This document shows, one piece after another, positions 3,001-9,000 of a stretch of 64,000 bases of DNA. Position 1 is the stretch's first letter. Each line of letters begins with the position of its first letter. The DNA comes from Callorhinchus milii (Eukaryota): positions 12,524,001 through 12,588,000 of the forward strand of contig NW_024704755.1 in the NCBI RefSeq assembly GCF_018977255.1. The letters are read 5' to 3'. The position numbers were made by a program.

Positions 3001-6000
3001 CTCCGATTATTATTTGCAAGACACCAACATTGTCATCAGTGTCTGTACTGACATGCCATTGCAGTATTTTGGAGGTTTCCAGATTTCTGGTACAAAATTT
3101 GCCAATGGATTGACGAGAGGCAAATCACTTAAACTGATATGATATTGATATCTGACAAGGTGCAGCCAGCTCATGAGTCCTTTGACCATTGTAAGATGTT
3201 TAGGATATGAAATACACACACATGCAGGTGGATGGTCTGGTTTGACACTTCATGGCAGCGCAGGGGGGATCACTGCATTGTTGGAAGTGCCGTTCTTCAG
3301 TTGAGATGCTAAACCGAGGTCCGGTCTGCCTGTTCAGGCGGATGTTAAAGATCTCATGGCGGCTGTTTGAAAAGAGAAGGGATTTTCTCCCAGTGTCCAA
3401 CAATTACTCAGTTACAACAACAACAACAACAAAATTACATTTGTTGTTGTTAAAAGTGGTCGTGGCTGTTTGTGGGACATTGCTGAATGCAAATTGGCTG
3501 TAGCATTTCTCTACCAAAATACACAGTCACCGTATTTTACAGAATGTGAAGTGCTTTGAGACATCCTTCCGGGGTGAAACAAAATGAAAGCCTGACTTCC
3601 TAGAAATCAGAGCCGAATAAGGAGAAGCGAACAACTTGGTGCAGAAATGCTTTCACTTTATTAACCTATTGATTCGATCCATTGCACGAAGGTTCGAAGG
3701 TTAAATTCATCAGTAATAGATGTATTGATCAATAAACGGACGCAAGTTGGCGACACTGGCGTAAATTGCAGGAGCCCTTACGTTGCAGTTGCTGGTTCCC
3801 CAAGAAACCAGACCAGACAGGCTCCAGGCACCGTTCACATAACAAACGAAAGGGCCACCGGAATCTCCCTGGAATAAAACATGGGACAAGCTGAACGAGC
3901 AGTGGTGAGCAGACTGCAAATACACATCGAGTCCCTCTCTCTCTCCCCCGCCCCCCCCCACCCTTCCGGAGAACTTCATAAGTAATGATCAGGATCTGGT
4001 TGGTATTTCGCCATCAGATGATAAGGCCAATTTCAGAGCCCTCTTCGGCTGCCCGCTAACTCTGCTCACATTTTATCATAGTGCTGGTAGTAATACTGTG
4101 ATATAATAATAACAATCCTCGCCTTCGATGGAGCACATTTAACGTCAGGAGGATGTCTTGATGCACTGCTGTAAAATACTTGTACCCACCTGACCTGCTG
4201 CGTGTTCCCAGCGACTTCTGTGTTTAGACCCTATTAACATCCTCCCCAAATACATGGTTACCTACCTGACACGAGGAACTTCCAGAGGCACCAGCACAAA
4301 TCATCATGTTAGTAATGCTGTTCCCCCAATATTCCTTGCAGCGACTGTTTTCAATGACGGGTAGGCTTGTCTGCATGAGCTTGCTAGCGGTTGCTATATT
4401 AGGGAGACATTATGATGACAATGACGAACTAATATAATAAGACTATTAATCCTTACATTTGATATAGTGCCTTGGGACGTCCTCCCGACGTGAAAGGCGC
4501 TATACAAATGTAATTTTGTACTGTATTGTATGACGCCTTATCACGTCTTCGAAACATCTCAAAGCATTCCCCAGAATATACTGTAAATGAATTGACTGTA
4601 TACATTTTGGGAAAAATGTGGCAGCCAATTGTGCACAGCAGTGTCCCACAAACAGTCGTGGATTGAGTGACCAAATTATTATCTTTTTAATTATTCTTTT
4701 TGAAGGGATTATTACCCTCGGAAAAGTGATCCGCCAATCGGCTAACAACCAGGTTCCTATTTACTGCGAACGGAACAGCGGCCTCTGAAGTAAGGAAACT
4801 TGCCTAACGTTTCGTCCTGCCTGCAAATCGAACCCAGGTCCTCTCGCTTGTGAGACAAGTGATCTAACCAATACGCGACAGGACTCAACATATGTTGGCA
4901 TGTGTGCCTGCAAGTGTATTCAACTTCAGTAAAGTACTTAATAGCTTCTTACCACCGCCGGCCACAGTCCTTCCCCACCCAGTGGTGACACACGTTGTGC
5001 CTCCTGGAAGATAAGTGCCCTGAGGAATCAGTGGGACTGGCGAAACATAGCTATTGTAACTAGCTGGGGAAGACAGCCTTAGTAGAGTACAGTCATAGTT
5101 CAAGGTTTGGTAGTTGAAGTTAGGATGGGTAATGACCTGAAACAAAGGCACAAAATATTATTCCATCAATAACTGAGGTCGGGTTTGAGTTTTAACCAGA
5201 AATTGCAATTTTACTTTTTTTCCATTTCGGAGTAAATGGTTATACGAACTGCTTTGAGATGTTACTTACTTAGGAAGCAATTTTAGTTTGTACTTACCTG
5301 TGAAACACTTTTCACTTGCACAGGTTCTGATGAAGAGTGCATATCAAATTCTCCGAGCACAACAATATGATAGTAGTAACTGTAGTAGTAGAAAACATTT
5401 AAATCGTTAATCTGTGGAGACACTAAGAATCTCTGTGTAGCTACTTGGAATCTAGAATAGACAATGTTCCCACGCTATTCGAAAAGTAATTGATGTTTTT
5501 CCTGGTGTCCCGGTTAACAATTCCCCGGATAAATTGTTCATTCACTTTATGGCTGTTTGAAGGACATAGCTGTGTGCAAATTGGCTGCCACATAATAATA
5601 ATAATAATCCTTGCATTTGATATAGCGCTTTTCAGGTCAGGAGGATGTCCCAAAGCGCTCACAGAATATACTGTAAAGTGAATTGACTGTATATTTGTGG
5701 GCGAACGCGGCAGCCAATTGCGCACAGCAATGTCCCACAAACAGTCGTAGATTGAAAATGACCCAATTATTCTTGTTTTGTTTTCTTGGAGGGATTATTA
5801 TTAGGCTCTGTGTGGAGGAAGGAAACTTGCCCAACGTTTCGCCCTCTGCCTGGAATTGAACTCAGGTCTCTCACTTGCAAAGCGAGTGCTTTAACCACTG
5901 AGCTAAAGGACTCCACATTGACCCTCGAAATACAGTGACTACACTTTACAAGAAATCCTGTAAAGCTCTTTAAAACATCGTCCCAACATGAAAGGCGCAA

Positions 6001-9000
6001 TATCAAATCCAACTATTATTCTTTTACTTATTTGTTGAATAAAGTACTAGATGAGCTGTTACTTTATTCAACAAATAAATAAAAGAATGAACAATTTCAA
6101 GGGGGAATTGTTAACCAGGACACCAGGAAAAACATCAATTACTTTTCGAATAGTGCAATAGGATCCATAACATTCACCTGAAGAGGAAGTTGGAACCTCG
6201 GTTACAATCCGTCAACAAGCTTCGCGGCAGGAAGCTGATTTAAAGAGAATGTTATCCAAATTTAATAACCACCTGTCAAATACTCACTTAAATTGACAGT
6301 GGGCGGCAGTAATAACCCAGTTCTGGTTTACCAGAGATCCTCCACAGAAGTGATTGCGATTTTTGTCCTGCGGAAAAACAACCAATTCTGAGAGGTGATG
6401 AAGTTTCAGGTACATTGCGCTCTCTAGATACAATAGGTCAGACACAACCAGTGAGAGTTTCCCTGTACAGCTTCAACTCAATGGAGAATAGCAATACCAG
6501 TCTGAAGTTTGCTTTCGGGGAGGGGGATATCCGAAAAGGTAAGCAATAGGTTCCTGTTACGTGTTCATCTAAACTAAAATAAAATAAAATATAGTATTCT
6601 CGCCTACACGGTACCAGCAATAAACCAGGGGAGTCCTATACCAGGGATCAAGCACAATCAGGTCTGATAACTGGACTTGTGTGTAACTAGAAAGATCACA
6701 CCAGGAGTGAATGAATTGAAGCACTTGGTTATAATCGGTGTATAACAGCAACAACAGCAGCAACTTGCCTTTACATAATGCCCTTCAAACAGGGTAGCAT
6801 CTCGAAGCCTTCAACAGTGGCGGAGCTTGATGGTGAACCACGGAGAGAGTGGAGGTGACTGTAGGCATGTATAACAGCGACTTTCCTCAGCTCTAAGTAC
6901 ATAAGCAAAACCCCTTTCCTTTCTCCAACTATATTGTCCCAGAAAGATAGGAACAGGTTATATTCCGTTGCACCTTCATGCAGGATAGTGTCTCGGAAAC
7001 TCTTCAGGTGCGATCTGACGATGGACTGCAAAGAGACTGCAAAGCGGAGGCATTGAGGCAGGGAGTTCCAGACGTTTGGGGGGCAGTGGCTGAAGGCACG
7101 GTCCCCAATGATGGAGCGGAAGGGTCAAGTGACCCGCAAAATGCCTGAGTCGGCCGAGCAAAGTGACCGGTTGAGGAGCAGTAAATAAATATTAATTTAA
7201 CAAGTTTAAACATTTCAAAAATGTAATGAATTTTACATTTAAAAATAGAATTGAAGAGAAATGTTACCTGCAGGGAGACTTGCCAGGGCCAAGCCCCTGG
7301 ACTTGACACCTGTCCGTTGACTATACGGGAAGGGTCAGCTGCAGGAGCACCAGCAACTGGGGAAGGAAAAAGGTTTGAAACAAAATATTCTTATGTGCTT
7401 GTCACTTTGTCATGATCCTGATCGCGGAGTCCGGTAGCGTATTGCTTAGAGCACTCGCCTCGCAAGCGAGAAGACACGGTCAGGGCGATACCTTAGGCAC
7501 AATGCCTTTGAGACGACTCAATGACACAATAAACCATTATATCAAATGCAAGGATTAGGATGATAAATGGTATTCTTTAAACTTCTTTATTGGATAATAA
7601 CTTAAGAAAATAGGAACAGACGCAGATCATTCAGTCAATCCAACCTGTTCAACTAGTTTAATTTAGTAGATCGCGGCTGATCGCCTCGGGATGTTCTCCC
7701 GACGTGAAAGGCACTCTATAAATGGAATCTTGTTGTTGTTGTTGATCTGACACTTAGCCCCATTTCCTGCTGTTTCAGCACTTCTTTCGATATCTTTGCC
7801 AACCAAATATTCATAATAAGAATTTGGTACATTTAATACTTCCATTTGGTACAGTGCCTGTCACATCAGGAGGATATCTCAAAGAGCTTCATAGGACATA
7901 TTTCTCTTTTCGAACAGTGCTATGGGATCTTTGACATCGACCTGGACAAGGCAGACTGGAGCTTGTTTTAGCATCTCATTTGAAGACAGTATGTCTAATA
8001 ATGGAACGCCTTGCATTGTATCCTCTTAGTCTGGATTTGCCCTTTCTCCAAAGAAGAAAGCTTCTCTGTATAGACTTTGTCAAATCCCTTTATAACATGG
8101 TTTCGGCACCCTTTCCACTTCCCCCGTCCCCCTTACCCCTATGTGCCTCAAACTACATTCCCAGTAAAAATAACGTTAAAGGTGGAAAATTGTGTAGAAA
8201 AAAAAAGTTTTTTTTAATGTTTGAACTTCCCACTTAAAAGTTAAGTGTAAAACTGCCCTTTGGGTGAGACGTTAAACTGAGGTACTGTCTGGTTCAGCTG
8301 GACATAAAGGATCTCATGGCACTCTTTAAAAAAGACAAGGGAGTTTCTCCTAATGTCGTGGCCAACAATTCCCCAGATAAAACTGGTGATTCACTTTGTG
8401 GCTGGTTGTGGGACATTGCTCTGTGCAAATTGATTGTCCCTTTTGCCTACAGATGCACAGTCAGACAGAATACATATGTACAGTAATATTGTGAAGCACA
8501 TTGAGACAGTTTGATGATTTGATAAGAGTCTATATCAAATGCAAGGATTATTATTTCTATTAAAATGCTTTGACCGGTATAACTATCACTCACCATAGGT
8601 TGCTCCTGCAATAGCAAAGCACAGGATCCAAGTGAAAGTCATGCTTGCCTCTCTTGTGTTGCTCTTTCTTCGGCTCTCTAGCTTTTATATTTGCTGATTG
8701 GAAGCTGTATCTGCAACAGATAAGGAATATCAATTCACAGAAAGGTGCAATGACATTGGAAACTGCTCACAAACGCACTTAATTTTAGGTCTCAATCAAT
8801 GGTCTTTGATCAGCAAACAAAAAACATTTTTCCAAGAAAAGTGGCAAAAATGGATTCAGATTCAGCCTAGGATTTCACTGTGCCGTCATGTAAGATTGAT
8901 GATTGTGTTTCTCCTTTTGCAAACAGTATCTGAGACACAATAATTGAAAAGACAACTTTTAATAATAATAATAATAATCCTTGCACCTTATCACATCGTT

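What the first reader, a model, noticed from the sequence alone, without database searches (positions are those of the whole stretch)
3710..8642. CTRL-like protease lacking both partners of the Cys1-Cys122 tether, with a new Cys next to catalytic Asp102
Seen: the propeptide is VAGAPAADPSR (no Cys, unlike CGxPAI..), the usual SPVCL is SPVPL, and Asp102 lies in NYDC (TGT at 5091-5089), leaving 9 Cys in the mature chain. The pseudogene copy also has APIAL and NYDC, so these changes predate the duplication. Established: chymotrypsins and CTRL keep the propeptide disulfide-linked through Cys1-Cys122. Inference: a single-chain enzyme with a released propeptide and one unpaired thiol beside the triad, possibly a lineage-specific subfamily with altered or redox-sensitive behaviour.
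Basis: partly seen in the sequence, partly recalled or inferred. Interest (0 to 1): 0.65.

Follow-up and report, generated by a model that had tools for sequence, protein, structure and literature searches.

The report
Cartilaginous-fish CTRL protease without propeptide tether
This is an intact chymotrypsin-like (CTRL) digestive protease gene of the elephant fish; like its shark counterparts it has lost the disulfide that normally ties the propeptide to the enzyme and carries an odd lone cysteine next to the catalytic aspartate, a curious but modest variation on a well-known enzyme.

Summary
A seven-exon, 771-nt gene lies on the minus strand at 8642-3710. It encodes a chymotrypsin-family zymogen with Ala in place of Cys1, Pro in place of Cys122 and Cys after Asp102, giving 9 Cys after Ile16.

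The window is Callorhinchus milii: exon 5 of a neighbouring gene is 100% identical to a named C. milii protein. The gene ends a tandem array of five canonical CTRB-like genes, all with Cys1 and Cys122, plus one truncated, frameshifted copy of itself.

The Cys pattern is not private. Five shark proteins, auto-named CTRL-1, share it. It therefore goes back at least to the last common ancestor of holocephalans and sharks. In the tree this group sits on the CTRL side, on a long stem.

Cys at 103 occurs in 7 of 449 aligned S1 domains, all from this group. Elsewhere the site is Ile, Val or Leu in 415. The thiol is therefore most likely buried in the core, not a redox switch.

Release of the propeptide after Arg15-Ile16 cleavage is a sound inference but untested. 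No paper describing the pattern turned up. I rate it a new variant of a known kind, of modest interest.

The parts
8594..8642 (-). Exon 1: ATG at 8642-8640, signal peptide MTFTWILCFAIAGATY plus the first base of a split Val codon.
   Evidence: GT donor follows at 8593-8592.
8683..8689 (-). TATAAAA box, 41 nt upstream of the ATG.
   Evidence: Read directly. Promoter function not tested.
7268..7356 (-). Exon 2: Cys-less propeptide and start of the mature chain. Ala (7354-7352) aligns with Cys1. The activation site is Arg (7327-7325) | Ile16 (7324-7322).
   Evidence: It is the only match to the paralogues' exon 2 within 3000-9500.
6288..6367 (-). Exon 3: Cys42, His57 (6301-6299) and Cys58.
   Evidence: Pfam Trypsin E 1.8e-09.
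5298..5379 (-). Exon 4.
   Evidence: Mean identity is 80.0% to 4 shark counterparts, 56.2% to bony CTRL and 44.6% to CTRB.
4953..5136 (-). Exon 5: Asp102 (5094-5092), Cys103 (5091-5089), Pro at position 122 (5034-5032) and Cys136.
   Evidence: Pfam Trypsin E 2.6e-12.
4266..4393 (-). Exon 6: Cys168, Cys182, Ser189, Cys191 and Gln192.
   Evidence: Pfam Trypsin E 3.9e-06.
3710..3868 (-). Exon 7: Gly193, Asp194, Ser195 (3862-3860), Cys201, Gly216, Cys220, the NCNV motif, Ala226, Phe237 and the TGA stop at 3712-3710.
   Evidence: Pfam Trypsin E 5.3e-08.
3657..3662 (-). AATAAA, about 50 nt after the stop codon.
   Evidence: Read directly. Use as a poly(A) signal not tested.
12203..13514 (-). Truncated pseudogene copy (copy B) holding only exons 5-7. 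It has NYDC and APIAL, Tyr for Cys201, Cys for Trp215 and a 2-nt deletion near the end of exon 7.
   Evidence: It is colinear with the focal gene only from 5239/13617 down to 3002/11577, at 76-88% nt identity.
18237..50553 (-). Five CTRB-like chymotrypsinogen genes in tandem (exon 2 to exon 7: 22950-18237, 31823-27560, 40278-36548, 46112-42313, 50553-47565). All have CG.P (Cys1), SPVCL or SPICL (Cys122) and D-I or D-V at 102-103. These are context, not part of the focal gene.
   Evidence: Exon 5 of the last gene is 100% identical to a Callorhinchus milii protein.

Best explanation
The locus is the Callorhinchus milii member of the cartilaginous-fish branch of CTRL, the pancreatic 'chymotrypsin-like protease'. 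It looks like a working gene, and it sits at one end of a tandem chymotrypsinogen array.

In this branch (the holocephalan here plus at least five sharks) both Cys1 and Cys122 are gone and Ile103 has become Cys. The four core disulfides remain: 42-58, 136-201, 168-182 and 191-220. So do the triad, the Arg15|Ile16 activation site, Asp194, and a chymotrypsin-type pocket (Ser189, Gly216, Ala226) with the CTRL-type Gln192.

Inferred working:
1. The protein is secreted as a zymogen.
2. It is cut after Arg15 by trypsin.
3. The short propeptide (10-11 residues, against 15) then leaves, as in trypsin, instead of staying tied on. The enzyme is therefore a single chain.
4. Cys103 fills a site that is aliphatic in almost every relative. 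It is most likely a buried, unreactive free thiol, not a switch.

Shown: the gene structure, the residues, the relatives and the tree position.
Inferred: secretion, activation, propeptide release, burial of the thiol and pancreatic expression.
For: - Gene structure: seven exons with AG/GT at every internal boundary, 771 nt in frame.
- Family: Pfam Trypsin is hit by 4 of the 6 exon peptides tested.
- Conservation: the gene keeps 58 of 61 columns that are invariant in 37 reference proteins.
- Shared Cys pattern: five shark proteins have the same three states. These are P0001 Scyliorhinus torazame, P0002 Pristiophorus japonicus, P0003 Mustelus asterias, P0024 Heterodontus francisci and P0005 Rhincodon typus (partial).
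- Diagnostic columns: 12 columns separate the window gene plus 4 sharks from 33 bony CTRL/CTRB references, among them C1, I103C, C122 and W237F.
- Exon-by-exon identity: for each of exons 2-7 the mean identity is highest to the sharks, for example exon 5 at 65.7% against 59.0% (CTRL) and 45.5% (CTRB).
- Tree of 37 database proteins: the CTRB clade, which includes the C. milii protein, has support 100/98. The shark group has 100/100 and lies on the CTRL side.
- AU test: a shark-group plus C. milii-CTRB clade is rejected, p 0.0015.
- Fragment placement: exon 5 and exon 6 fragments fall in a set with the 4 sharks at SH-aLRT 100.
- CTRL signatures: Gln192 and the NCNV motif are shared with bony CTRL. 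Passages of PMC11694548 call Gln192 likely conserved in CTRL-type enzymes.
- Rarity of Cys103: Cys in 7 of 449 aligned domains, all from this group; Ile, Val or Leu in 415.
- Fold: the AlphaFold model of shark P0001 (mean pLDDT 81.4) matches bovine chymotrypsin at TM 0.94-0.95.
- The tether in the standard enzyme: passages of PMC7265447 state that fragment 1-15 stays bound through Cys1-Cys122.
- Expression lead: a catshark pancreas transcriptome lists a Ctrl transcript (PMC4362833, passage).
Against: - There is no expression or protein evidence for this gene.
- No protein identical to its exon 5 came back from either protein set. The best hits were 67% and 69%, and the latter is a prediction over the pseudogene copy. 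The gene may therefore be unannotated.
- The branch evolves fast, with a stem of 0.67 changes per site.
- Over exons 5-7 the focal gene is no better conserved than its dead copy. Unique changes are 8 (focal) against 12 (copy), p 0.50, and dN/dS between them is 0.66. Both keep 35 of 37 invariant columns.
- The free tree nests the shark group beside ray-finned-fish CTRL (95/86) and not outside all bony CTRL. The expected arrangement is not rejected, p-AU 0.14.
- Burial of Cys103 rests on residue conservation and on my recollection of the fold. No coordinates were available.
- The Cys has been kept in all 7 sequences across the holocephalan-elasmobranch split, put at about 420 million years (abstract of PMC6238376). 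Reaching it from Ile takes two base changes. A purely neutral core filler does not need that much conservation.
Confidence: 0.7

Rival explanations
1. Thiol-regulated protease. Cys103 is reactive in the folded enzyme. Its oxidation, metal binding or mixed-disulfide formation next to Asp102 would tune or switch activity.
For: Cys103 is kept in all 7 sequences of the group: the window gene, its dead copy and five sharks. It is found in none of the other 442 aligned domains. It is next to the catalytic Asp. Two base changes separate it from Ile.
Against: The site is Ile, Val or Leu in 415 of 449 relatives, the pattern of a packed core residue. No second new Cys exists to pair with it: each of the four full-length shark proteins has 9 Cys in the mature chain, counted by eye. 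No paper on such a switch in S1 proteases turned up.
Confidence: 0.12
2. A decaying gene. In C. milii the CTRL-like gene is drifting under relaxed constraint and makes no useful enzyme. The Cys pattern would then be a leftover.
For: dN/dS between the gene and its dead copy is 0.66, and the focal gene has no fewer unique changes (8 against 12, p 0.50). No identical protein was returned from the protein sets. The branch is long.
Against: - The reading frame is open across seven exons, with every splice site canonical.
- The triad, Ile16, Asp194 and 8 paired Cys are all present.
- The gene keeps 58 of 61 invariant columns.
- The copy shows what decay looks like: exons 1-4 lost, a frameshift, and Cys201 and Trp215 lost.
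- Four sharks have full-length intact counterparts.
Confidence: 0.1
3. Cys103 makes an intermolecular disulfide, either a homodimer or a link to another protein, taking over in some way from the lost tether.
For: Only the odd number of Cys.
Against: The site has a core-type residue pattern, and nothing else points to this. I ran no complex prediction, since I do not claim binding.
Confidence: 0.04

Closest known systems
Shark proteins auto-annotated 'chymotrypsin-like protease CTRL-1': Scyliorhinus torazame P0001, Pristiophorus japonicus P0002, Mustelus asterias P0003, Heterodontus francisci P0024 and Rhincodon typus P0005 (partial)
   Same: No Cys at position 1 or at 122, and Cys after Asp102. 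Also Phe60, Arg107, Met156 and Phe237, Gln192, and a C-terminus ending in Tyr. These are the nearest relatives of every exon tested.
   Different: Identity per exon is only 64-84%. The window's propeptide is 5 residues shorter. Residue 122 is Pro here, against Arg or Ser in the sharks.
CTRL of bony vertebrates
   Same: Same side of the tree. Shared Gln192, Thr217, the NCNV motif, Ala226 and Ser189. The seven-exon layout is seen in this window for the focal gene and its CTRB-like neighbours; I did not check it for bony CTRL.
   Different: All 18 bony CTRL references have Cys1 and Cys122, and 14 of 18 have Ile103. Activated human CTRL is treated as two chains held together by disulfides (PMC11694548, passage).
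Chymotrypsinogen B, including the five neighbours in the window
   Same: Same fold, triad, activation site and exon boundaries, and membership of the same tandem array.
   Different: CTRB has Met192, Cys1-Cys122 and Ile or Val at 103. Mean identity of exon 5 is only 45.5%.
Trypsin-type zymogens, whose propeptide is not disulfide-tied
   Same: It works like these after activation: no Cys122 and a free propeptide. Taken alone, exon 5 even scores best against rat and pig trypsins in the PDB.
   Different: The pocket is chymotrypsin-type (Ser189, not Asp189). There is no trypsin-type Cys22-Cys157 or Cys128-Cys232 pair (recalled numbering, not tested). The propeptide is not of the DDDDK type.

Membership tests
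S1A (chymotrypsin-fold) serine proteases, Pfam PF00089 | Match to the Trypsin profile. | tested here: met
   4 of 6 exon peptides pass the cut-off, E 1.8e-09 to 3.9e-06. The two short ones (29 and 27 aa) give nothing.
S1A (chymotrypsin-fold) serine proteases, Pfam PF00089 | Catalytic triad His57, Asp102 and Ser195, plus Gly193/Asp194 and an Ile16 N-terminus after a basic residue. | tested here: met
   Read: AAHC, NYDC, GDSGGP, SR|IVNG.
S1A (chymotrypsin-fold) serine proteases, Pfam PF00089 | Two-barrel chymotrypsin fold. | tested here: inconclusive
   Tested only on the shark stand-in P0001: pLDDT 81.4, TM 0.94-0.95 to bovine chymotrypsin. The window's own protein was not folded, because the exons were not joined.
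CTRL (chymotrypsin-like protease) | Groups with CTRL and not with CTRB in a tree that holds both from bony and cartilaginous fish. | tested here: met
   Shown for the shark counterparts: the CTRB clade has 100/98, and the alternative clade is rejected at p 0.0015. The window's exon 5 and exon 6 fragments join the sharks at SH-aLRT 100. Exon 7 is nearest to them but without a supported branch.
CTRL (chymotrypsin-like protease) | Gln192 instead of the Met192 of other chymotrypsins. | tested here: met
   SSSCQ|GDSGGP. The feature is as stated in PMC11694548 (passage).
CTRL (chymotrypsin-like protease) | Propeptide tied on through Cys1-Cys122. | tested here: not met
   Ala at position 1 and Pro at 122, against Cys in 18 of 18 bony CTRL. 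For this reason I file it as a variant branch of CTRL, not a standard member.
CTRL (chymotrypsin-like protease) | Made in pancreatic acinar cells. | not testable with these tools
   No expression data are at hand. There is only the catshark pancreas listing of a Ctrl transcript (PMC4362833), and its sequence was not seen.
Chymotrypsinogen B | Met192, Cys1-Cys122, and a place inside the CTRB clade. | tested here: not met

The most novel reading that the evidence does not exclude
The lone Cys103, kept beside the catalytic Asp in a holocephalan and in sharks, lineages put at about 420 million years apart, is needed for function. On this reading cartilaginous-fish CTRL is a thiol-sensitive serine protease whose activity or lifetime in the gut is set by oxidation, metals or mixed disulfides. 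Its tether-free, shortened propeptide would give it different zymogen stability and activation behaviour from every other vertebrate chymotrypsin.
Probability: 0.1. Interest if true: 0.6.

Novelty: new variant of a known kind. Interest (0 to 1): 0.33.

Why it matters
CTRL is the least understood pancreatic chymotrypsin. This is a whole vertebrate lineage in which it has done without the Cys1-Cys122 tether for hundreds of millions of years.

It is a natural counterpart to the mutagenesis work on disulfide-linked propeptides (Kardos et al. 1999, which I saw only as a reference entry). It offers ready-made sequences for asking what the tether is for: zymogen stability, folding, or resistance to autolysis.

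The conserved Cys beside Asp102 is a small, cheap biochemical question.

The window also shows CTRL-like and CTRB-like genes in one tandem array. This fits an origin of the two by local duplication.

None of this overturns anything, and the shark sequences are already public under automatic names.

Tried and rejected
- **Another exon 2 with Cys1.** The exon 2 peptides of the five paralogues were run against 3000-9500. They match only 7351-7268 (E 5e-10 to 2e-08). The next best hits have E of 0.6 or worse. Rejected.
- **Naming two unnamed proteins.** Naming the Cys103 proteins P0144 and P0146 through the listing of cluster members could not be done, because the database was switched off. Reading them shows they are gene predictions over the window's own pseudogene copy, with intron read-through. 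They are not independent evidence.
- **PDB search with exon 5 alone.** It ranks trypsins first. This is an effect of a 61-residue piece lacking Cys122, not a sign of trypsin kinship.
- **First pair of AU tests.** They turned out to be one and the same split. They show only that bony-CTRL monophyly is not rejected. The informative test is.
- **Burial of Cys103.** The model has no coordinates on the script machine, so no solvent exposure could be computed. A search for 'Ile103' found no paper containing that term.
- **Pfam on the last 264 bases of the window.** It gave nothing. The PDB sequence search identified the piece.
- **Literature.** Six searches for a description of this Cys pattern or of shark CTRL found none. 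PMC7366634 holds no word on disulfides, and PMC7914634 has nothing on the tether.
- The seven exons were never joined. There is therefore no whole-protein search, fold or tree row for the window's own gene, and shark P0001 stood in for the fold.
- **Unchecked.** Rays, skates and other chimaeras were not searched on purpose. Supplementary files, such as the catshark transcript list, were not seen.
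Full report
**What is there.** On the minus strand between 8642 and 3710 lies a seven-exon gene. The exons are 8642-8594, 7356-7268, 6367-6288, 5379-5298, 5136-4953, 4393-4266 and 3868-3710. Every internal boundary has AG and GT, and the coding length is 771 nt, in frame.

A TATAAAA box sits at 8689-8683, and an AATAAA at 3662-3657 (read; function not tested).

Four of the six exon peptides tested match Pfam Trypsin. The two shortest give nothing.

- V-AGAPAADPSR|IVNG, with no Cys.
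- NYDC, with TGT at 5091-5089.
- SPVPL, with CCA at 5034-5032 where Cys122 would be.

Cys counts per exon are 1, 0, 2, 0, 2, 3, 2. The three split codons give Val, Asn and Ala. The chain after Ile16 therefore has 9 Cys. Eight of them are the canonical partners 42-58, 136-201, 168-182 and 191-220, and the ninth is Cys103.

Every search, alignment and tree on the window's own gene was done exon by exon. No whole-protein search or fold of it was made.

**Surroundings.** The window has no N. It holds a tandem array on the minus strand.

Five CTRB-like genes span 18237-50553. Each has CG.P at the start of exon 2 (Cys1), SPVCL or SPICL (Cys122), Asp102 followed by Ile or Val, and Met192.

Between these genes and the focal gene lies a partial copy of the focal gene (13514-12203), which also has NYDC and APIAL:
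- It is colinear with the focal gene only from exon 5 downstream, at 76-88% nucleotide identity. Nothing matches exons 1-4.
- It has Tyr for Cys201, Cys for Trp215 and a 2-nt deletion that shifts the frame near the end of exon 7. It is a pseudogene.

Exon 5 of the outermost CTRB-like gene is 100% identical to a Callorhinchus milii protein, A0A4W3JWE7. I therefore take the window for that holocephalan, not for human.

The last 264 bases on the plus strand encode residues 2-36 of V-ATPase subunit d1.

**Relatives.** With exon 5 as query, the best named hits are shark proteins auto-annotated 'chymotrypsin-like protease CTRL-1', at 62-67% identity.

A search with the Scyliorhinus torazame protein added Heterodontus francisci. 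After the sharks it listed only proteins of bony vertebrates, most of them named CTRL-1 (120 of 7213 shown).

All five shark proteins lack Cys at position 1 and at 122 and have Cys after Asp102.

Across 280 fetched relatives, 459 aligned stretches gave 449 with a residue at position 103. That residue is Ile in 288, Val in 81 and Leu in 46. It is Cys in only 7: the five sharks and two unnamed predictions. Those two predictions turned out to be models of the window's own pseudogene copy.

Twelve alignment columns separate the window gene plus four sharks from 33 bony CTRL and CTRB references: positions 1, 6, 23, 60, 103, 107, 122, 152, 156, 162, 237 and 243. The specificity residues are not among them.

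Gln192, Thr217 and the NCNV motif are shared with bony CTRL. Gln192 is the feature that PMC11694548 singles out for CTRL (passages).

**Tree.**
- In a 37-protein tree the CTRB clade, including the C. milii protein, has support 100/98. The shark group has 100/100, lies on the CTRL side, and sits on a stem of 0.67 changes per site.
- The free tree puts the shark group next to ray-finned-fish CTRL (95/86). This is not the species-tree place. Holding bony CTRL together costs only 2.55 log-likelihood units (p-AU 0.14).
- Making the shark group a cartilaginous-fish offshoot of CTRB is rejected (p-AU 0.0015).
- The window's exon 5 and exon 6 fragments, and those of the dead copy, fall with the four sharks at SH-aLRT 100. 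Exon 7 is nearest to them, without a supported branch.
- Mean identity of every exon from 2 to 7 is highest to the sharks.

The split between holocephalans and elasmobranchs is put at about 420 million years in the abstract of PMC6238376 (listing). The three changes are at least that old.

**How it most likely works.** In chymotrypsinogen A the fragment 1-15 stays bound through Cys1-Cys122 after the Arg15-Ile16 cut (PMC7265447, passage). Activated human CTRL is handled as two chains held together by disulfides (PMC11694548, passage).

Here both partners are absent, while the activation site, Ile16 and Asp194 are kept. The plain inference is a zymogen that is activated in the usual way and then lets its propeptide go. 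That propeptide is 5 residues shorter than usual. The result is a single-chain chymotrypsin-type enzyme.

Cys103 replaces a residue that is aliphatic in 415 of 449 relatives. I therefore take it for a buried free thiol. That the site is in the core is my recollection of the fold and an inference from conservation. I could not compute exposure, since no coordinates are given out.

A model of the shark protein has mean pLDDT 81.4, with 93-98 around the site. It matches bovine chymotrypsin at TM 0.94-0.95.

**What speaks against an easy reading.**
- There is no expression evidence for this gene.
- No protein identical to its exon 5 came back from either protein set.
- Over exons 5-7 it is not better conserved than its dead copy. 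Unique changes are 8 against 12 (p 0.50), dN/dS between them is 0.66, and both keep 35 of 37 invariant columns.
- Against decay stand the open frame, the intact splice sites, 58 of 61 invariant columns kept over the whole gene, and intact counterparts in four sharks.
- The long retention of Cys103, which needs two base changes from Ile, is more than a neutral filler requires. A functional thiol is therefore not excluded.

**Literature.** Six searches found no description of this Cys pattern or of shark or chimaera CTRL.

The catshark pancreas transcriptome paper lists a Ctrl transcript and says the elasmobranch enzymes had not been characterised (PMC4362833, passages). Its supplements, which may hold the sequence, were closed.

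Kardos et al. 1999, on disulfide-linked propeptides, was seen only as a reference entry. What I say of its content is recalled.

**Verdict.** The gene is a variant branch of CTRL shared by a holocephalan and sharks, already present in public protein sets under automatic names but, as far as I could search, undescribed. Propeptide release is a sound inference, and the redox idea is unsupported. Interest is modest.

Noticed in passing
window 3710-50553, minus strand: CTRL-like and CTRB-like genes lie in one tandem array of seven units: one CTRL-like gene, its dead copy and five CTRB-like genes. From memory, the human CTRL and CTRB genes are megabases apart on chromosome 16. The array here fits an origin of the two by local duplication.
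   Followed up: partly
window 63736-63999, plus strand: This piece is the first coding exon of a V-ATPase subunit d1 gene. It covers residues 2-36, E 1.8e-12 against solved structures, and lies in the G+C-richest part of the window (0.507). From memory, human ATP6V0D1 lies in 16q22 near CTRL, which would be conserved linkage.
   Followed up: partly
window 9046-10105 and 13614-14675: A 1063-nt stretch upstream of the focal gene recurs at 97.9% identity directly upstream of the dead copy's exon 5, exactly where colinearity between the two copies ends. It is far younger than the rest of the duplication (76-88%). It could be a recent conversion, a second duplication or a young mobile element.
   Followed up: partly
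database proteins P0065 (Gallus), P0010 (Coturnix), P0039 (Atractosteus): These bony-vertebrate CTRL proteins read LVY where Cys201 should be. The two bird proteins keep Cys136, which would then be unpaired. The gar protein lacks Cys136 too. Disulfide loss in CTRL is thus not confined to cartilaginous fishes.
   Followed up: no
window 38481-38320 (exon 5 of the third CTRB-like gene): This copy reads ...HPRRITEFDV..., with a 3-residue gap and Phe before Asp102, where its neighbours have the usual ...W.S.TINNDV.... It may be a diverging or failing paralogue.
   Followed up: no
window 10898-10967, 27371-27443, 34452-34522, 35937-36008, 54689-54760: ARAGORN calls five tRNA-like stretches: Ala three times, Pro once and Thr once. 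I take them for heads of tRNA-derived SINEs. Similar elements fill the introns of the focal gene, for example 5915-5820 and 4885-4790 as read.
   Followed up: no
database protein P0281 and window 51164-51418: The N-terminus of the public C. milii protein for the outermost CTRB-like gene (...LNSLIYKNPCTCAPYHG) is encoded about 0.6 kb upstream of exon 2. It does not look like a signal peptide. The public model probably has a wrong first exon.
   Followed up: no
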